From assembly GCF_019668485.1 (NCBI RefSeq), contig NZ_AP024619.1:2263757-2287756 (forward strand): DNA of 24,000 nucleotides, written 5' to 3'. This document shows positions 11,780-22,633 of the stretch, piece after piece (the first letter of the stretch is position 1; every line of letters begins with the position of its first letter). Below the pieces are notes generated by a model that was not told the DNA's origin, searched no databases, and saw only the letters and a program-made list of their open reading frames with translations. The DNA is from Gelria sp. Kuro-4. GTDB taxonomy: Bacteria > Bacillota > DTU030 > DUMP01. The position numbers were made by a program, and so were the translations under genes.

Positions 11780-11830
11780 CTTCCACCCTCCTTACGCCGT
11801 CGCCTGCATTCTGTGATCTCCCCACCCTCG

Positions 11831-12402
11831 GTACACCCGATCAGCGTGAGAAACGTACTTCGGGCTGCCAGGGGGACAGGTCGGGCATGGGGACGGGTTG
11901 GGCATGGGGACAGGTTGGGCCCTCATCTCAACCCTGGATTGCCAACCTGTCCCCCATTCCATCCTGGATTGCCGACCTGTCCTTCCTGCGCCGGTGATCC
12001 CAGCTTACACGGCACACCCACCTCCCGGCAGCAACGTCTCCCAGGTTGCCATGGGGACAGGTCGGGCATGGGGACAGGTTGGGCCCTCGCCTCAAACTCC
12101 GAATTGCCAACCTGTCCTTCCTGCGCCGGTGATCCCGGCCACACGGCACACCCGCCTCCCGAGACCGACGCCCCCCAAGGTTGCCATGGGGACAGGTCGG
12201 GCATGGGGACAGGTTGGGCCCTCATCTCAACTCTGGATTGCCAACCTGTCCCCCATTCCATCCTGGATTGCCAACCTGTCCTTCCTGCGCCGGTGATCCC
12301 AGCTTACACGGCACACCCACCTCCCGACAGCAACGTCTCCCAGGTTGCCATGGGGACAGGTTGGGCCCTCGCCTCAACTCCGAATTGCCAACCTGTCCCC
12401 AT
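11831..12402 (+). repeat. Repeat array A of the nested-palindrome family (8 heads, 6 tails, 3 linkers)
   Basis: Direct reading. Heads ATGGGGACAGGT(C/T)GGGC are at 11871, 11887 (degenerate), 11904, 12051, 12068, 12186, 12203 and 12350. Tails GCC(A/G)ACCTGTCC are at 11941, 11971, 12106, 12240, 12270 and 12387. Segment 12179-12402 is a near-duplicate of 11862-12117. Confidence 0.92.
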
Positions 12403-12404
12403 AC

Positions 12405-13509
12405 CTAATTAACCTGGCTTCTCAGATACGCCTTGATAAACGGGTCCAGCTCGCCGTCCATCACCGCCTGCACGTTGCCCATTTGCTCGCCGGTACGGTG
12501 GTCCTTCACCAAGGTATAGGGTTCGAAGATGTACGATCGGATCTGGCTCCCCCAGGCGATCTCCTGCTGCTCCCCGCGCAGGGCGTTGAGCTTGGCCTCT
12601 TCCTCCTTGCGCTTGAGGTCGAAGAGCCGGGCCTGCAGGATGCGCATGGCCGTGAGGCGGTTGGCGTGCTGGGAGCGCTCGTTCTGGCAGGTGACCACAA
12701 TCCCCGTGGGCAGGTGGGTGATGCGCACGGCGGAATCGGTCTTGTTCACGTGCTGGCCGCCCGCCCCGCCGGAGCGATAGGTGTCGATCTTCAGGTCCTC
12801 CGGCCGGATCTCCACCGCCATGTCCTGGTTTACTTCTGGGATCACGTCCAGGGAGGCAAAGGAGGTGTGGCGCCGGCCGGCCGCGTCGAAAGGCGAGTGG
12901 CGCACCAGCCGGTGCACCCCGCGCTCGCCCTTGAGGTACCCGTAGGCGTTGGGCCCGCTCACCAGGAAGGTGGCGCTCTTGATACCGGCCTCTTCGCCCG
13001 GGAGCACATCCCAGAGCTCCACCTTAAAGCCGCTCTTTTCCGCCCAGCGCGTGTACATCCTGAGCAGCATCTCCGCCCAGTCCTGGGCCTCGGTACCGCC
13101 GGCGCCGGCGTGGAGGGAGAGGATGGCGTTCAGGCGGTCGTAGGGGCCGGCCAGCAGCGCCTCCAGGTGCAAATCCTCGTAGTTCCGCTTGAGCTCGGCC
13201 AGCCCCGCCGCCACCTCGTGCGCCGTCTCGGCATCCTCCGCCTCCGCGCCCAGCTCGCAGAGGACGGCAAGGTCCTCTGCCTCTTTGGCCAGCGCCCGGT
13301 AGCGCTCCACCCTTTCCTTGAGGGCGGAAAGCTCCGGCATCACCTTCTCCGCCCGCGCCGGGTCGTCCCAGAAGCCAGGCTTGGCTATTTCCGCTTCCAG
13401 TTCGCGGATGCGGGCCTCTTTGCCTGCGATGTCAAAGAGAGACCCCCATTTCGCGGATGCTGTCCTCCAGCACGTTCAGCTCGCGCTTCAGGTCTTCATA
13501 AAGCAGCAT
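12405..13509 (-). CDS. prfB: Peptide chain release factor 2, two frames joined by a programmed +1 frameshift
   Basis: Frame 0 is ATG 13509 ... GTC TCT CTT TGA (MLLYEDLKRELNVLEDSIREMGVSL*). The +1 frame continues DIAGKEARIRELE... into the 312-aa ORF carrying SPF and GGQHVNKTDSAVRITH (GGQ) motifs. Total ~367 aa. Confidence 0.95.
13431..13447 (-). promoter_or_regulatory. prfB autoregulatory +1 frameshift site (GGGGG-N6-CTT TGA C)
   Basis: The minus strand reads ATGGGGGTCTCTCTTTGAC. The slippery CTT codon, an in-frame TGA followed by C, and an internal SD-like GGGGG upstream match the canonical RF2 frameshift cassette. Confidence 0.9.
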
Positions 13510-16213: not shown

Positions 16214-16291
16214 CAAAACACCCTCTTTATGGGTCTCTCAGCGGCAGCAATGAAACCAGGGCGCCCCTTCCTCCGTAAGCGCCGTCTCTTT

Positions 16292-16320
16292 ATTTTAGCA
16301 TTTCGCCCGCGTCAAGACAA
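16292..16320 (-). promoter_or_regulatory. Putative sigma-A promoter of secA-prfB
   Basis: The minus strand reads TTGTCT-17 nt-TAAAAT with a TGC extended -10 (TGCTAAAAT), ~75 nt upstream of the secA start. Confidence 0.5.
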
Positions 16321-16345: not shown

Positions 16346-16391
16346 AGCTCCCAGGCACGCTCAATCACCGCCGCAAGCGGAGAGTGCGATC

Positions 16392-16448
16392 GCCATGGGG
16401 ACAGGTCGGGCCCTTATCTCAACTCCGGATTGCCGACCTGTCCCCCAC
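16392..16448 (+). repeat. Solo hairpin unit of the nested-palindrome family
   Basis: gccATGGGGACAGGTCGGGC-ccttatctcaactccggatt-GCCGACCTGTCCCCCac: one head, one loop and one tail. It overlaps the last ~12 codons and the stop of the minus-strand CDS. Confidence 0.88.
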
Positions 16449-17094
16449 TCCTATTAGCCCCAGGCAGGCATTTCTCCACCGCCTTGAGCGTGGCCTGCGC
16501 CACACCCATGGCCATGTCCCCCGGGATAAAGCTGGCCCCGGCCAGGCTCTCCTCGCGCGCCGGCGTCACCGCCGCCACGGTCACCACCGCCACCGGGCGC
16601 TCGCCCACGTCGAGGAGCCGCAGCCCCTCCAGCGCCAGCGCCACCTCGCCCTTCAGGTACTGCTCCACGGCGCTCAACGTCGCTACGGCCACCAGGCGCA
16701 GGCGGTTGTGCGTGGCCGCCGCCCCCTGCGCCTCGCCGGTAAAGAGCTCTCCCTCTATCTCCAGGCCCACGCTGCAGCTGGCGCGGGCCCCGCTCACCTT
16801 CACATTGACATCCACCACGCGCACCCAGGCGGCCGCCCCCGGCAGCCCCGCCTCCCAATCCAGCTGCGCGACACTCACCTTTTTGTGATCGATGGGAAGG
16901 TTAAAGTGCGCCATGAACGCGGATTCGATGTCCCGGACGATCTGCTTGGGGCTGCGCCCTGCCCCGGCCAGCACGTGGATCTCCTGAATGGCGCTTGTCT
17001 CGTCGAGAACCACACGGGCCGAGATTACGTCCCGTATCTGGCGCAGGATGCCCTCCAGCTCTGCTGCCGAAACCCCTTTTTTGATGTCGGGCAA
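16414..17094 (-). CDS. Uncharacterised protein (226 aa) in the hpf-secA interval
   Basis: High GC3. Start set at TTG 17094 (GGAGGA 6 nt upstream) rather than the track start at 17193. No family recognised. The C-terminal residues ...GGQVGNPELR* are encoded by the repeat unit. Confidence 0.62.
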   Translation of the reverse strand: MPDIKKGVSAAELEGILRQIRDVISARVVLDETSAIQEIHVLAGAGRSPKQIVRDIESAFMAHFNLPIDHKKVSVAQLDWEAGLPGAAAWVRVVDVNVKVSGARASCSVGLEIEGELFTGEAQGAAATHNRLRLVAVATLSAVEQYLKGEVALALEGLRLLDVGERPVAVVTVAAVTPAREESLAGASFIPGDMAMGVAQATLKAVEKCLPGANRSGGQVGNPELR

Positions 17095-17326
17095 AGTTCT
17101 TCCTCCATTCTCTTCTAAGTTGCAGGCATCATCCCCGGGCCGCGCACAAGAAAATGGTGGCATACAAACGGCTCTGGCATTGCTGTCGGACAAGGAGGGA
17201 GAAGCAAGAAAAAGGCCGAAGGAAACCCACGTACAGAATAATCCATGTAATTTACCTACCTGCTATTATTTTCGACCTCAGAGAGATTTTTCCTGCTATG
17301 CCTGTAACCCGGGACAGGCACGGGCC

Positions 17327-17355
17327 AATATATTTGTAGTGTTGTATAGTGTCAG
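17327..17355 (-). promoter_or_regulatory. Putative sigma-A promoter in the AT-rich island downstream of hpf
   Basis: The minus strand reads CTGACA-17 nt-TATATT. It lies immediately after the hpf terminator hairpin and ~230 nt upstream of the TTG start at 17094. Confidence 0.5.
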
Positions 17356-17363
17356 AAAGCAAG

Positions 17364-17399
17364 GCCGGCCCCGCGCCCCCGGGCGGCGCGGCGGCCGGC
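17364..17399 (-). terminator. Putative hpf terminator (GC-rich hairpin)
   Basis: GCCGGCCGCCGCGCC / GGCGCGGGGCCGGC arms (~14 bp with one bulge), followed on the minus strand by CTTGCTTTCTG. Confidence 0.55.
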
Positions 17400-17500
17400 T
17401 CGCCTACGTTCTTATCAAGTTAGGCCGGTCGTCACCGCCGTGCGGGAAACAGGCCGGCGGGTCGGCCTCGGCGGCCGTGCCGGGTGCCCGCACGAGCTTC

Positions 17501-18031
17501 TTAACGCAGCGGCTCGATGAGCCCGTAGTTCCCATCGCGCCGGCGGTAGACCACGTTCACCTCTTCCGTTTCGGCGTTGCGGAACACGAAGAAATCGTGA
17601 CCCAAAAGGTTCATCTGGAGGAGGGCCTCGTCCACCGGCATAGGCTTTACGGCGAAGCGCTTGGTGCGCACCAGGTGCGGCTCTTCTTCATCGGCCGGGC
17701 GCCCGCCGACTCCGGCGGCCAGGTCCAGGACGCTGCCGTTTTTCACTTTACGGGCGAGGCGGGTTTTATACTTTTCAATCTGCTTCTCCAGCTTTTCAAT
17801 CACCATGTCGATGGAGGCGTACATGTCGCCGCTGGCCACTTCGCCCCGGAGCAACCGGCCGCCCACCGGCACCGTCACCTCCACCATGTGCCGGTCCCGT
17901 TCCACCCCGAGCGTTACCGTGGCTTCTGTAATGTCGTCCAGGAGTTTCGGGAGCTTGCCCATTTTCTTTTCGACATAGTCGCGCAAGGCAGGCGTGATTT
18001 CGATGTTTTTCCCGCGGACAGTGATCCGCAT
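17501..18031 (-). CDS. hpf: Ribosome hibernation-promoting factor (long HPF, YvyD/RaiA family)
   Basis: MRITVRGKNIEITPALRDYVEKKMGKL..., plus the C-terminal dimerisation domain KRFAVKPMPVDEALLQMNLLGHDFFVFRNAETEEVNVVYRRRDGNYGLIEP. Start ATG 18031 with AAAGGAG 8 nt upstream. Confidence 0.93.
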   Translation of the reverse strand: MRITVRGKNIEITPALRDYVEKKMGKLPKLLDDITEATVTLGVERDRHMVEVTVPVGGRLLRGEVASGDMYASIDMVIEKLEKQIEKYKTRLARKVKNGSVLDLAAGVGGRPADEEEPHLVRTKRFAVKPMPVDEALLQMNLLGHDFFVFRNAETEEVNVVYRRRDGNYGLIEPLR

Positions 18032-18075
18032 CCTGACCACTCCTTTCTACGCGAAAGCCTGCGTGCGTGGGGCCG

Positions 18076-18616
18076 CACGGCAACCCGATTCCCGTAGGAA
18101 ACGTCTCCCGGGTTGCCATGGGGACAGGTCAGTCCTCACGGCAAACTCACCTGCCGGAAGAAACGTACCCTGGGTTGCCAGGGGGGACAGGTCGGGCCCT
18201 CGTCTCTACCCCGAATTGCCGACCTGTCCTGCTTGCGCCGGTCATCCCGGCTACACGGCACACCCACCTCCCGACAGAAACGTCTCCCGGGTTGCCATGG
18301 GGACAGGTCAGTCCTCACGGCAAACTCACCTGCCGGAAGAAACGTACCCTGGGTTGCCATGGGGACAGGTCGGGCCCTCGTCTCTACCCCGAATTGCCGA
18401 CCTGTCCTGCTTGCGCCGGTCATCCCGGCTACACGGCACACCCACCTCCCGACAGAAACGTCTCCCAGGGTTGCCATGGGGACAGGTCGGGCCTCACGGC
18501 AAACTCACCTGCCGGAAGAAACGTACCCTGGGTTGCCATGGGGACAGGTCGGGCCCTCGTCTCAACCCTGAATTGCCGACCTGTCCCCATACCGCTAAAC
18601 AGACCTGTCCCCATAC
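18076..18616 (+). repeat. Repeat array C: 179-bp higher-order tandem repeat (~2.8 units) of the nested-palindrome family
   Basis: GGTTGCCATG recurs at 18111, 18290 and 18469 (period 179). Units 1 and 2 differ at only a few positions. Each unit is a 62-bp head-only subunit plus a 117-bp head-loop-tail-linker subunit. An extra partial tail sits at 18601-18614. Confidence 0.93.
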
Positions 18617-18617
18617 A

Positions 18618-18646
18618 TTATTCCCCGCGCCCGAGGAAAATCCTTC
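18618..18646 (-). promoter_or_regulatory. Sigma-H-like promoter candidate upstream of array C and hpf
   Basis: The minus strand reads GAAGGATTT-11 nt-GGGGAATAA. This fits the Bacillus sigma-H consensus as I recall it (RNAGGAWWW-N11-12-RNNGAATWW) at every specified position. Confidence 0.4.
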
Positions 18647-18667
18647 CCGCCCCGCGCAAACCAAAAG

Positions 18668-18692
18668 GGCCTTCGGTGAGCTTCCGAAGGTC
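18668..18692 (-). terminator. Intrinsic terminator of the ABC transporter operon
   Basis: The minus strand reads CCTTCGG-AAGCTCA-CCGAAGG followed by CCCTTTTGGTTTG, 13 nt after the ATPase stop codon. Confidence 0.65.
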
Positions 18693-18704
18693 CGAAGGTC
18701 CAGC

Positions 18705-19427
18705 TTAGAGGATTTTGCTTAAAAACGCCTGGGTGCGCTCATTCTGCGGGTTCTGGAAGATGGCGGCCGGTTTGCCTTCCTCGACGATCTTCCCGTCGTC
18801 CATAAACAGCACCCGGTCACCCACCTCGCGGGCAAAGCCCATCTCGTGGGTCACCACCACCATCGTCATCCCGTCGCGGGCGAGCTGCTTCATCACATCC
18901 AGCACCTCGCCGATCATCTCCGGGTCGAGCGCCGACGTGGGCTCGTCAAAGAGCATCACCTTCGGCTGCATCGCCAGCGCCCGGGCGATGGCCACGCGCT
19001 GCTGCTGCCCCCCGGAAAGCTGCCGCGGGTAGGCGTCCGCCTTCTCGGAAAGCCCCACCTTCGCCAAGAGGTCGCGGGCGATCTCCTCCGACTCCGCTTT
19101 CCCCATTTTGCGCACCTTCTGCGGCGCCAGGGTGATGTTATCCAGCACCGTCATGTGCGGGAAGAGGTTGAAGGACTGGAACACCATCCCCACCTCCTGC
19201 CGCACCCGGTTGATGTTGGTGGCCGAGTGGTTGAGCTTGATCCCGTCCACCACAATCTCGCCCTCGCTCGGCTCCTCCAGGTAGTTGATGCAGCGAAGGA
19301 GCGTCGACTTGCCCGAACCGCTCGGGCCGATGATCACAACAACCTCGCCTTGGTCCACCTTATTCGTAATGCCTTTAAGGACGTGCAGGTGCCCGAAGTG
19401 CTTGTGCACATTCCTAAGCTCGATCAC
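18705..19427 (-). CDS. Polar amino-acid ABC transporter, ATP-binding protein
   Basis: 240 aa: Walker [25 protein letters not shown], Walker [12 protein letters not shown]. GlnQ/HisP-like. GTG start overlaps the permease stop by 14 nt. Confidence 0.95.
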
Positions 19428-21101: not shown

Positions 21102-21350
21102 GTCCCAATTTCAGCCGTGTTGTGCGCCTACGCTCCGCTGCCTCATCAGTATGCATCTTTATGCATATTTATGCCGGTGCCTCTCCCTGAGCTTCGACTC
21201 TCACCGGTCCCCGTTCGGCCCCGATGGCCCGCGTGTGCCGGCTGCCCGCTGCGCGGACAGGTGCAGCGCCTTATGTCACCTGCGGCACCGGCTACAGACC
21301 CGGTTGCATGCTCCTACGGTCCCTATGCCTGCACCGGCGGGCCACTTTCC

Positions 21351-21368
21351 TGTGGATAATGTGGATAA
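21351..21368 (+). promoter_or_regulatory. Two abutting perfect DnaA boxes
   Basis: TGTGGATAATGTGGATAA is two head-to-tail copies of the reverse complement of TTATCCACA. Two 7/9 matches lie nearby in the same orientation (21372-21380 TGTTGAAAA, 21403-21411 TGTGGGCAA). Confidence 0.7.
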
Positions 21369-21486
21369 ACCTGTTGAAAACTTCCGCCTCAGGGGCTTGT
21401 CCTGTGGGCAAACCTGGGGAGAGCTCCGCGCACCGTGTCGAAGTCCCACGAACGGTCCCGGTCCCTGTCGCCTATTGCCGTGGGAG

Positions 21487-21967
21487 TTGCCGACCTGTCC
21501 TATCCTGCGCCGGTCCCCACTGCGCACACGCACACCCACCTGCCGAGAGCAACGGATCCTGGGTTGCCATGGGGACAGGTCGGGCCTCACGGCACACCCA
21601 CCTTCCGACAGAAACGTACCCTGGGTTGCCATGGGGACAGGTCGGGCATGGGGACAGGTCGGGCCCTCAATGGTCACCCTGGATTGCCGACCTGTCCCCC
21701 ACTCCTATCCCCGAATTGCCGACCTGTCCCACCCTGCGCCAGTTCCTACTACGCACACGGCACACCTACCCGCCGAAAGTAACGGATCCTGGGTTGCCAT
21801 GGGGACAGGTCGGGCCCTCGTCTCCTCCCCAGATTGCCGACCTGTCACCTCTCCGGAAGCCTTTGTGCAACTCCACGGCACACCCGACTTCCAAAAGAAA
21901 CGCCTCCAGGGTTGCCATGGGGACAGGTCGGGCCCTCGTCTCTACCCAGAATTGCCGACCTGTCCCC
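21487..21967 (+). repeat. Repeat array D of the nested-palindrome family (5 heads, 5 tails, mosaic order)
   Basis: Orphan tail at 21489. Heads at 21569, 21631, 21648, 21799 and 21917. Tails at 21686, 21718, 21836 (degenerate) and 21954. One nested double hairpin at 21631-21730. Confidence 0.9.
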
Positions 21968-21985
21968 TCTCCTCTAATACAAAAA

Positions 21986-22025: not shown

Positions 22026-22334
22026 TTACCTCACGTTGGCCGCCCGCATTGCTTCATAGCACTCGCGGCAGTACACAGGGCGGTCGTTGCGCGGCTTAAA
22101 GGGCACCTGGGTGGGCTGGCCGCAGTTCGCACACACAGCGTCGTACATCTCCCGCGGGGGCCTGCCAGCGCCAGTACGGTTGGCATTGGCCTGCTTGCGC
22201 GCCTGTCGGCATTCGCGGCAGCGCGAGGGCTCGTTGGTGAAGCCCTTCTCCGCATAAAACTCCTGCTCACCGGCCGTAAACACGAACTCTTTGCCGCAAT
22301 CCCGACAGGTTAGCACTTTGTCCTCAAAGGCCAT
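22026..22334 (-). CDS. Small zinc-ribbon protein (two CxxC...CxxC pairs)
   Basis: 102 aa from ATG 22334 (GAGGGGA RBS): MAFEDKVLTCRDCGKEFVFTAGEQEFYAEKGFTNEPSRCRECR...AVCANCGQPTQVPFKPRNDRPVYCRECY. This is a duplicated zinc-ribbon module. Confidence 0.8.
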   Translation of the reverse strand: MAFEDKVLTCRDCGKEFVFTAGEQEFYAEKGFTNEPSRCRECRQARKQANANRTGAGRPPREMYDAVCANCGQPTQVPFKPRNDRPVYCRECYEAMRAANVR

Positions 22335-22364: not shown

Positions 22365-22633
22365 ACCATAGCTTAGCTGACCTGGTCTTTGCCCCCACAC
22401 CCGCCTGCTGGAAGTCTCGCTCCGGGCCTTCGCCCCTCACTACTCCTTCTCTCCGGGCCGCTCGGAAAGCCCTGTTCAGAACCGGCCACCCTCCGGTCCT
22501 CAGGCCCCTCCCGCGCTCCCGGGCAGGACTTACCCCTAAGCCGCCCCATGCTCAGCAGTCCTTCAACTGCCTTACGTGGATCGTTTCGCCCGCGGCTGGC
22601 ATCGATTTGCAACCACAGACCTAAGCCATTGGT
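22365..22633 (-). ncRNA. Candidate structured RNA (long 5' leader of the zinc-ribbon gene or an independent ncRNA)
   Basis: ~269 nt, GC-rich and non-coding-looking, directly downstream of a near-consensus promoter. Its first ~25 nt (22633-22609) can pair with 22392-22365 (~20 bp in three segments). It has several internal hairpins (for example AGGACCGG-AGGGUGG-CCGGUUCU). I recognise no Rfam family. Confidence 0.4.

What the first reader, a model, noticed from the sequence alone, without database searches (positions are those of the whole stretch)
18076..18616. 179-bp higher-order tandem repeat fills almost the whole hpf upstream region
Seen directly: units 18111-18289 and 18290-18468 are each 179 bp and differ at only a few positions (for example CCAGGGGGG versus CCATGGGG, and CCCGGG versus CCCAGGG). 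The third unit (18469-18616) is slightly diverged and ends with two tails (18575-18590 and a partial one at 18601-18614). Each 179-bp unit combines two subunits. The 62-bp subunit has a head but no loop or tail (ATGGGGACAGGTCAGTCCTCACGGCAAACTCACCTGCCGGAAGAAACGTACCCTGGGTTGCC). The 117-bp subunit is a full head-loop-tail-linker. 179 is not a multiple of 3, which argues against coding. The linker core CCCACCTCCCG and its variant CTCACCTGCCG resemble a degenerate tail (CCGACCTGTCC), so the whole array may derive from hairpin arms. Near-identity of units implies recent duplication or concerted evolution. The array occupies ~540 of the 673 bp between the ABC operon terminator and the hpf start codon, so it either is the hpf leader or separates hpf from its promoter.
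Basis: seen in the sequence. Interest (0 to 1): 0.75.

Follow-up and report, generated by a model that had tools for sequence, protein, structure and literature searches.

The report
Variable repeat array inside hpf leader
The 179-bp tandem repeat is real, but it is one local array of a hairpin-plus-linker repeat family found in many intergenic regions of this Gelria lineage; it sits between a conserved sigma-H-type promoter and the hpf ribosome-binding site and differs in copy number between near-identical strains, so it is an ordinary kind of bacterial repeat in a notable position.

Summary
Observation confirmed. TRF finds a 179-bp period, 2.7 copies, 97% matches at 18098-18586. Units 18111-18289 and 18290-18468 differ at 3 positions.

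The window is Gelria sp. Kuro-4, assembled from ONT plus short reads. The array is not specific to hpf. The same modules fill three other intergenic regions of the window and a glycine-reductase operon on a metagenome contig, always co-oriented with the flanking genes. The modules are a 13-bp-stem hairpin with a conserved 23-nt loop, a 45-nt linker and a small variable hairpin.

Strains with 99.6% identical hpf DNA have 328, 673 or 808 bp between the ABC gene and hpf. The window equals the short allele plus exactly 2 x 179 bp.

Relatives with 73-88% HPF identity have no repeats. They keep an invariant sigma-H-type promoter 33-42 nt upstream of the hpf ATG. In Kuro-4 that promoter (18618-18646, the only perfect match in 24 kb) lies 5 nt upstream of the array. 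So the array is an insertion into the leader and is probably transcribed as a ~580-nt structured 5' UTR.

Most likely it is a lineage-specific REP/BIME/BOX-like repeat, expanded by recombination or slippage and tolerated rather than purpose-built. It is a new member of a known kind, of moderate interest.

The parts
18618..18646 (-). Sigma-H-type promoter of hpf: GAAGGATTT (-35), 11-nt spacer, GGGGAATAA (-10). The predicted transcription start is about 18610-18614, at the first bases of the repeat.
   Evidence: It is the only perfect match to RNAGGAWWW-N11-RNNGAATWW in 24 kb on both strands, with 0 expected. The consensus is taken from PMC8510167. The motif is invariant upstream of hpf in six lineages down to 73% HPF identity. 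B. subtilis hpf needs sigma-H (PMC12421865).
18589..18616 (-). 5'-terminal module of the array (gene orientation): an orphan 5' arm GGGGACAGGTC (18602-18612) plus a 13-nt spacer.
   Evidence: This 24-nt piece is absent from allele L040.
18540..18588 (-). Hairpin 1: GGGGACAGGTCGG, 23-nt loop, CCGACCTGTCCCC.
18478..18539 (-). 62-nt subunit 1: linker A (ATGGCAACCC...TTTGCCGTG), then AGG, then a 3' arm only.
18361..18477 (-). 117-nt unit: linker B, small hairpin K2 (GCCGG-GATGA-CCGGC), hairpin 2.
18299..18360 (-). 62-nt subunit 2, with the derived arm variant ACTGACCTGTCC.
18182..18298 (-). 117-nt unit with hairpin 3.
18120..18181 (-). 62-nt subunit 3.
18076..18119 (-). Terminal linker variant (ATGGCAACCCGGGAGACGTTTCCTACGGGAATCGGGTTGCCGTG). 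The same ...AATCGGGTKTGCCGTG type closes other arrays.
18032..18075 (-). Unique proximal leader with the hpf Shine-Dalgarno sequence (AAAGGAGTGG).
   Evidence: Identical in all close alleles.
17501..18031 (-). hpf (long HPF, 176 aa).
   Evidence: Pfam PF02482 + PF16321. Exact match to BCV25484.1 of Gelria sp. Kuro-4.
18660..18690 (-). Intrinsic terminator of the amino-acid ABC operon.
11797..12404 (-). Second array of the same family, between the prfB stop and the next gene. It has nested extra arms, and its stem variant is T:A instead of C:G.
16350..16456 (-). Single element (hairpin plus diverged terminal linker) between the 226-aa gene and the secA terminator/promoter. The stop codon of the 226-aa ORF lies in the hairpin loop.
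21464..21977 (-). Fourth site: an array starting right after the terminator of the zinc-ribbon gene, upstream of the ABC binding-protein gene.

Best explanation
The 179-bp repeat is a local tandem expansion of a lineage-specific, non-coding, modular intergenic repeat family of the Gelria sp. Kuro-4 lineage.

Read in the direction of the genes, the basic element has four parts. The first is a perfect 13-bp GC-rich stem with a conserved 23-nt loop. The second is a 45-nt conserved linker (ATGGCAACC..CGTTTCT..GGGTGTGCCGTG). The third, inside arrays, is a small variable hairpin. The fourth is the next stem-loop.

An ancestral element landed in the hpf leader, 5-7 nt downstream of the -10 box of a conserved sigma-H-type promoter and upstream of the ribosome-binding site (shown by comparison with repeat-free relatives). 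Direct repeats of '3' arm + linker' then allowed unequal recombination or replication slippage. This added or removed whole blocks of 117 + 62 = 179 bp (inferred from alleles that differ by exactly 358 and 480 bp).

When hpf is transcribed from that promoter, the array becomes a ~580-nt, very stably folded 5' UTR (inferred; the transcription start is not mapped). Its effect is most likely incidental. It is tolerated, and at most it changes mRNA stability or yield with copy number. It is probably not a dedicated hpf regulator, because the same modules sit in unrelated intergenic and intercistronic sites.
For: The tandem structure is confirmed.

The family is dispersed. The window has 11 complete hairpins and 29 core matches at four intergenic sites. 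A fifth site lies between the glycine reductase B and grdA genes on contig L025. All sites have the same orientation as the flanking genes.

Alleles at the hpf locus measure 328 bp (L036, L038, L039), 673 bp (window) and 808 bp (L034, L035). hpf DNA is 529/531 identical and the ABC ATPase is 235-241/241 identical across them. The window equals L036 plus one 358-bp gap (2 x 179). L034 equals the window plus a 122-bp unit.

Relatives with 88% and 82% HPF identity have no family member in 10 kb of the syntenic region. Their ABC-hpf spacers are only 212-219 bp.

The promoter match is unique in the window and invariant in six lineages. In four of these it lies 33-42 nt from the ATG. B. subtilis hpf depends on sigma-H.

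The element is non-coding. Unit lengths are 117, 118, 119, 122, 135, 136, 151, 164 and 168 nt.

The stem is 93% paired over 25 distinct copies, with one C:G to T:A double change. The sense RNA of one unit folds at -90.3 kcal/mol (z -4.7). The whole leader folds at -316 kcal/mol (z -8.4).

There is no Rfam family, no similarity to plasmids or phages and no viral contig.
Against: The transcription start is not mapped. The promoter is a consensus and conservation inference, and the presence of sigH in this genome was not checked.

The one-unit alleles come from short-read metagenome assemblies, which could collapse near-identical 179-bp units. The polymorphism is safest for window versus L034/L035/L040/L002.

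No transposase, target-site duplication or donor element was found, so how the family spreads is unknown.

The loop and the '3' arm + linker start' are more conserved than neutrality would suggest. This hints at recognition by some factor. Consistent orientation at 5 of 5 sites could also mean selection at the RNA level.
Confidence: 0.7

Rival explanations
1. The array is a selected cis-regulatory leader. Its stacked stem-loops would control hpf mRNA stability, processing or translation, for example as a 5' stabiliser against RNase J/Y or as a thermosensor in this 55 C organism. Copy number would act as a tuning knob.
For: It lies entirely between the predicted transcription start and the ribosome-binding site. 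The sense strand folds better than the antisense strand (z -4.7 versus -2.2). Two of the small K2 hairpin variants keep pairing through G-U pairs only on the sense strand (by inspection). Orientation is fixed relative to transcription at 5 of 5 sites.
Against: The same modules occur downstream of prfB, upstream of secA, after a zinc-ribbon gene and inside a grd operon, so nothing ties them to hpf. Relatives regulate hpf with a ~35-nt leader. RNAalifold on 13 diverged units supports only the main stem and a local linker stem, with similar energies on both strands. One-sided changes in the main stem give A-C mismatches on the sense strand. The hpf SD/AUG region is not sequestered by the array in the MFE fold.
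Confidence: 0.12
2. The array insulates hpf from the old sigma-H promoter, by termination or a roadblock inside the repeats. hpf would then be transcribed from a new promoter inside or downstream of the repeat.
For: About 580 nt of untranslated, structured RNA is a long way to read through. The terminal linker carries a GGGAAT motif close to hpf.
Against: No sigma-70-like promoter was found in 17900-18800. There is no second sigma-H match. The only terminator-like hit inside the array is a weak 6-bp stem in a single mutated copy. The hairpins lack U-tracts. The same elements sit between probably co-transcribed genes (prfB and its downstream gene; grdB and grdA), so read-through is evidently tolerated.
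Confidence: 0.08
3. The repeats work at the DNA level. They would be clustered binding sites for a nucleoid, topoisomerase or recombinase protein, as BIMEs bind gyrase and IHF, or recognition hairpins of a Y1/HUH transposase that mobilises them.
For: The most invariant part is a 27-nt block (GGGCCCGACCTGTCCCCATGGCAACC) rather than the pairing itself. The loop sequence is conserved. Arrays have defined 5'-terminal (TAGGNNNGGGG...) and 3'-terminal (..AATCGGGTKTGCCGTG) modules. The family is absent from sister lineages, which implies a recent spread.
Against: No candidate protein or transposase gene was seen in the 24-kb window or the fetched loci. There is no GTAG motif and no inverted doublets as in REP/REPIN. 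Target duplications could not be recognised.
Confidence: 0.1
4. Assembly artefact: the tandem structure or its copy number was created by mis-assembly.
For: Short-read contigs from DRR264974 break at both ends of the array. The differences between units include homopolymer lengths.
Against: The assembly is hybrid ONT plus short reads, and the array is only 540 bp. Independent MAG and ENA assemblies carry three- and four-hairpin arrays with the same 117 + 62 architecture at the same locus.
Confidence: 0.03

Closest known systems
REP elements and BIME clusters of Escherichia coli and pseudomonads
   Same: They are short GC-rich palindromes confined to transcribed intergenic regions. They are combined with conserved linker motifs into mosaic clusters whose copy number varies between strains, and they form stable stem-loops in mRNA.
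   Different: The copies here are all in direct orientation, not alternating or inverted doublets. The stem is perfect and 13 bp long, with a large conserved 23-nt loop. There is no 5' GTAG. An association with a RAYT transposase could not be examined. There is no sequence similarity.
BOX elements of Streptococcus pneumoniae (boxA-boxB(n)-boxC)
   Same: The build is modular, with distinct terminal modules and an internal module repeated a variable number of times. The elements are intergenic, co-transcribed with neighbouring genes and strongly folded as RNA. (From general knowledge.)
   Different: The sequence and modules are unrelated. Here the amplified block is a compound of 117 + 62 nt, and extra half-arms occur in 17- and 30-nt steps.
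MIRU-VNTR loci of Mycobacterium tuberculosis
   Same: They are tandem units of tens to about 100 bp in intergenic or intercistronic positions. They have a fixed orientation relative to the operon, and whole-unit copy number differs between very close strains.
   Different: MIRUs carry short ORFs that overlap the neighbouring genes' stop and start codons. Here the unit lengths (117, 118, 119, 122, 135 nt and so on) rule out a conserved reading frame.
Bacterial MITEs (Correia, ERIC, RPE, bcr1)
   Same: The size is about 100-120 bp with inverted-repeat arms. Distribution is lineage-specific, and empty orthologous sites exist in relatives. Insertion can occur into promoters or leaders.
   Different: The inverted repeats are 23 nt apart at one end of the unit, not at its termini. 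No target-site duplication or parent IS was identified.
Sigma-H/sigma-B-dependent hpf (yvyD) promoter of Bacillus subtilis
   Same: An hpf gene followed by secA and prfB is preceded by a perfect sigma-H-type -35/-10 pair. B. subtilis hpf transcription needs sigma-H.
   Different: In Kuro-4 about 540 bp of repeats separate the promoter from the gene. No sigma-B-like motif was recognised by eye.

Membership tests
Tandem repeat / VNTR locus | Head-to-tail copies of one unit with high identity | tested here: met
   Period 179, 2.7 copies, 97% matches. Three differences between units 1 and 2.
Tandem repeat / VNTR locus | Whole-unit copy-number differences between close strains at the same locus | tested here: met
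   Gaps of 358 bp (2 x 179) and 480 bp between alleles with 99.6% identical hpf. Caveat: the short alleles come from short-read assemblies.
Dispersed intergenic repeat family (REP/BIME/BOX-like) | Many copies at unlinked intergenic sites and none inside genes | tested here: met
   Four sites in the window plus the grd operon site on L025. Only the last codons of one ORF overlap a copy. Whole-genome count not possible, because the genome is not in the searchable collections.
REP / REPIN with RAYT transposase | Conserved GTAG 5' of the palindrome and inverted REP doublets | tested here: not met
   There is no GTAG next to the stems. All 40+ copies inspected are in direct orientation.
REP / REPIN with RAYT transposase | A RAYT (IS200/IS605-like TnpA) gene flanked by the repeats | not testable with these tools
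   Only 24 kb of the genome is available. None of the window ORFs scanned against Pfam matched a transposase.
MITE | Terminal inverted repeats, a target-site duplication, and empty sites in relatives | tested here: inconclusive
   Empty orthologous sites exist (L041, L044). The flanks are too diverged to define boundaries or duplications. The inverted repeats are not at the termini of the unit.
CRISPR array | Identical repeats separated by unique spacers of similar length | tested here: not met
   The sequence between hairpins is itself conserved across sites.
Known structured RNA family (Rfam 15) | A match at the family's gathering score | tested here: not met
   Only raiA at 22368-22629 passes. 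In the array there are only sub-threshold miRNA/lncRNA chance hits.
Protein-coding repeat | Unit length a multiple of 3 and a frame kept open across copies | tested here: not met
   Units of 62, 117, 118, 119, 122, 135, 136, 151, 164, 168 and 179 nt.
Sigma-H-dependent promoter | RNAGGAWWW, 11-12 nt spacer, RNNGAATWW | tested here: met
   Perfect match at 18618-18646(-), unique in the window, 0 expected.
Sigma-H-dependent promoter | Conservation upstream of orthologous genes | tested here: met
   Both boxes are invariant in six lineages with 73-100% HPF identity, including one with a different upstream gene.
Sigma-H-dependent promoter | A mapped transcription start, and dependence on sigH | not testable with these tools
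   Needs 5' RACE or dRNA-seq and genetics. Presence of sigH in AP024619 was not checked.

The most novel reading that the evidence does not exclude
The family could be a previously undescribed class of orientation-specific, transcribed RNA module that bacteria of this lineage carry in leaders and intercistronic regions. Its hairpin-plus-linker units would be recognised by a dedicated factor, such as a nuclease, a chaperone or a mobilising enzyme. At hpf, unit number would then act as a heritable rheostat for ribosome-hibernation capacity. Alternatively, it could be a new non-autonomous mobile element that targets transcript boundaries, landing just after -10 boxes, stop codons or terminators.
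Probability: 0.12. Interest if true: 0.6.

Novelty: new member of a known kind. Interest (0 to 1): 0.35.

Why it matters
The finding gives a clean natural series of 0, 1, 3 and 4 repeat units between an identifiable stationary-phase promoter and the hpf ribosome-binding site, in otherwise near-identical genomes. This makes it easy to test how bacterial interspersed repeats affect expression of the gene they invade. It also documents a repeat family, apparently undescribed, that appeared after this Gelria lineage split from relatives with 88% identical HPF. On the practical side, the arrays break short-read assemblies and generate spurious ORFs of 150-300 aa on both strands, so annotators of these genomes should mask them.

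Tried and rejected
**Coding.** Long ORFs cross the array on both strands, and a 111-aa ORF spans the L025 array. Unit lengths are not multiples of 3 and vary between sites, so coding is rejected.

**CRISPR-like array.** Rejected, because the 'spacers' are conserved.

**Known RNA families.** None found.

**Public genome scan with an 18-mer of the hairpin.** It returned 11 single chance hits in unrelated high-GC genomes. The source genome is evidently not searchable there, so no genome-wide census was possible.

**Metagenome scan.** 19 stretches were found and only four carry real members, three of them orthologous to window sites. The viral scan gave 0. Plasmid and phage blastn gave no match.

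**Literature search for the core motif.** Only unrelated eukaryotic primer hits.

**Long-range RNA helices.** A helix between successive linkers is predicted in single-sequence folds. It is not recovered by RNAalifold on 13 diverged units.

**Assigning the functional strand from G-U pairs.** The evidence conflicts: the K2 variants favour the sense strand, while one-sided changes in the main stem favour the antisense strand.

**Target-site duplications.** Comparison with repeat-free relatives failed because the flanks are too diverged.

**Other promoters.** No sigma-70-type promoter was found. Searching by eye for a sigma-B-type promoter in or below the array found nothing.

**hpf start codon.** The first look-up with the GTG start at 18040 failed. 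The true start is the ATG at 18031.

Full report
**Source and layout**

The HPF protein encoded at 17501-18031(-) is identical to BCV25484.1 of Gelria sp. Kuro-4. This is a thermophilic anaerobe. Its 2.88-Mb genome was assembled with Unicycler from ONT reads (corrected-read N50 11.6 kb) and 2x200 short reads (PMC8375477).

All genes around the finding are on the minus strand. In order they are:
- a zinc-ribbon gene preceded by a raiA RNA;
- an amino-acid ABC transporter (binding protein, permease, and ATPase at 18705-19427);
- hpf;
- a 226-aa gene of unknown function;
- secA;
- prfB.

The hpf start is the ATG at 18031, so the ABC-hpf spacer is 673 bp.

**Check of the observation**

- TRF reports 18098-18586 with period 179, 2.7 copies and 97% matches, plus a nested 62-nt period.
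The third unit differs at 4 of 118 positions before it ends.
- The core 11-mer occurs 29 times in the window, against 0.8 expected.

The description is accurate.

**What the unit is made of**

I describe it in gene orientation (the minus strand), where the logic is clearer.

- **Hairpin.** GGGGACAGGTCGG, a 23-nt loop (CAATYCRGRGTTGAGAYGAGGGC), then CCGACCTGTCCCC.
- **Linker.** A 45-nt conserved stretch follows: ATGGCAACC..CGTTTCT..GGGTGTGCCGTG.
- **K2.** A ~24-nt variable segment that usually forms a small hairpin comes next, and then the next hairpin.
- **117-nt unit.** Linker + K2 + hairpin = 117 nt.
- **62-nt subunit.** This is a linker plus only the 3' arm.
- **179-nt block.** 117 + 62 = 179.
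- **Extra arms.** Elsewhere, extra 5' arms (in 30-nt steps) and extra 3' arms (in 17-nt steps) are stacked on either side of a hairpin.
- **Array ends.** Arrays start with a TAGGNNNGGGG-type junction and often end with a distinctive linker (..AATCGGGTKTGCCGTG).
- **Not coding.** Unit lengths of 117, 118, 119, 122, 135, 136, 151, 164 and 168 nt exclude a conserved reading frame.

**It is a dispersed family, not an hpf feature**

The same modules form arrays at 11797-12404 (after prfB) and 21464-21977 (after the zinc-ribbon gene's terminator). A single copy lies at about 16350-16456, between the 226-aa gene and the secA terminator/promoter.

A metagenome contig (L025) carries three 117-nt units between the glycine reductase B and grdA genes.

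All five sites have the same orientation relative to the flanking co-directional genes.

Nothing similar turned up in Rfam, plasmids or phages, or viral contigs. A scan of species-representative genomes returned only chance singletons.

**Comparison of the hpf locus across relatives**

This is the most informative result. Contigs carrying identical or near-identical ABC ATPase and HPF genes give the following spacers:

| Locus | Spacer |
|---|---|
| L036, L038, L039 | 328 bp |
| Window | 673 bp |
| L034, L035 | 808 bp |
| L040, L002, L003 | further variants |

- hpf DNA is 529/531 identical among these strains.
- The window aligns to L036 with a single 358-bp gap, exactly 2 x 179.
- L034 has one further 122-nt unit.
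- The two 179-bp blocks of Kuro-4 share derived variants (loop CGGGGTAGAGACG, arm ACTGACC) that the L034 units do not share. At least one duplication is therefore recent and lineage-specific.
- Caveat: the one-unit alleles come from short-read assemblies and could be collapsed. The differences among the window, L034/L035, L040 and L002 cannot be explained that way.
- A lineage with 91% HPF identity (L046) has a diverged one-hairpin version.
- Lineages at 88% (L041-43) and 82% (L044/45) have no family member anywhere in 10 kb of syntenic sequence. Their spacers are 212-219 bp.

The family therefore spread after these lineages split.

**Promoter**

Between the ABC terminator (18670-18690) and the array lies GAAGGATTT-N11-GGGGAATAA (18618-18646).

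- This is a perfect match to the sigma-H consensus RNAGGAWWW / RNNGAATWW (PMC8510167).
- It is the only match in the window on either strand, with none in 100 shuffles.
- Both boxes are invariant upstream of hpf in six lineages down to 73% HPF identity, including one where the upstream gene is different.
- In the four repeat-free lineages the -10 box is 33-42 nt from the ATG.
- In B. subtilis, hpf transcription requires sigma-H (PMC12421865).
- In Kuro-4 the repeat begins 5 nt after the -10 box.

The array is thus an insertion between promoter and ribosome-binding site. The predicted transcript starts at about 18610-18614 and carries the whole array as a ~580-nt leader. This step is inferred, not shown.

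No sigma-70-type promoter and no second sigma-H site exists in or below the array.

**Structure**

- The main stem is 93% paired over 25 distinct copies. It has one pair with a double change (C:G to T:A), confined to the prfB array, so probably a single event.
- As RNA, one unit folds at -90.3 kcal/mol on the sense strand (z -4.7). On the antisense strand it folds at -71.3 kcal/mol (z -2.2). The whole leader folds at -316 kcal/mol (z -8.4).
- RNAalifold on 13 diverged units keeps only the main stem and a local linker stem, and does not favour either strand.
- The most invariant segment is the 3' arm plus the start of the linker, and the loop sequence is also conserved. This could reflect recognition by a protein or simply the youth of the family.

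**Mechanism proposed**

1. A ~100-nt element (hairpin plus linker) inserted into the leader.
2. Direct repeats of '3' arm + linker' (27 nt identical, about 80% identity over 62 nt), flanking a strong hairpin, favoured slipped mispairing or unequal recombination. This changed the array by whole 179-bp blocks.
3. The transcribed array is tolerated. The same elements sit between probably co-transcribed genes (prfB and its downstream gene; grdB and grdA), so they neither terminate transcription nor block downstream expression.

A dedicated regulatory role at hpf is possible but unsupported.

**Verdict**

The object is a new, lineage-specific member of the well-known class of bacterial interspersed intergenic repeats (REP/BIME, BOX, MIRU-like). 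It forms a variable-number array in a well-defined position. It is of moderate interest, mainly as a natural experiment on how such repeats affect a stationary-phase gene.

Noticed in passing
window 22368-22629 (-) and 22026-22334 (-): A raiA RNA motif (RF03072, 166 bits) lies directly upstream of a 102-aa treble-clef zinc-ribbon gene (PF13451 + PF23477). The gene is present at the same position in all the relatives that were fetched. The function of raiA RNA is unknown, so a conserved downstream gene may be a useful clue.
   Followed up: partly
window ~13425-13441 (-): The classical prfB programmed +1 frameshift site (GGGGGT..CTT TGA C) splits RF2 into a short upstream ORF and the 312-aa ORF at 12405-13343.
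   Followed up: partly
window 16414-16456 (-): The 226-aa ORF of unknown function (no Pfam match) runs into the repeat hairpin and stops at a TAA inside its loop. Its last ~10 codons are therefore supplied by the repeat. Relatives have different C-termini and lengths (224-284 aa called).
   Followed up: partly
window 18683-18701: There is a short tandem GACCTTCGG just after the ABC ATPase stop and overlapping the terminator stem. Kuro-4 has two copies, while L034-L040 carry an extra 14-nt stretch with a third copy. This is a second small length polymorphism in the same spacer.
   Followed up: partly
window ~16290-16320 (-): A secA promoter (TTGACG-N17-TAAAAT, with the preceding terminator GGGCGCCTTTTC) is nearly identical in Kuro-4 and in the 82-88% relatives, although the surrounding spacer is not alignable.
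   Followed up: no
window 21150-21174 and 21351-21368: Direct repeats TATGCATNTT (2.5 copies) and TGTGGATAA (2 copies) lie in the unique AT-richer region upstream of the ABC binding-protein gene. They may be operator sites.
   Followed up: no
window 11797-12404; L038 16676-17015: The array downstream of prfB carries nested hairpins: extra 5' arms upstream and extra 3' arms downstream of a complete hairpin. It also carries the T:A stem variant. It measures 608 bp in Kuro-4 and about 330 bp in L038, so this site is also length-polymorphic.
   Followed up: partly
L025 840-1172: Three 117-nt units of the family sit between the glycine reductase component B gene and the selenoprotein gene grdA, that is, inside an operon whose downstream gene needs a UGA-Sec recoding signal.
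   Followed up: no
L001, L037 (Logan assembly of DRR264974): Short-read contigs identical to the window stop inside the array from both sides. This repeat family will fragment short-read assemblies of these organisms.
   Followed up: no
window 17095-17500: The 405-bp spacer between hpf and the 226-aa gene has no repeat. It has a GC-rich hairpin after hpf and then an AT-rich stretch. A 61-aa antisense ORF is called there in L038. Not analysed.
   Followed up: no
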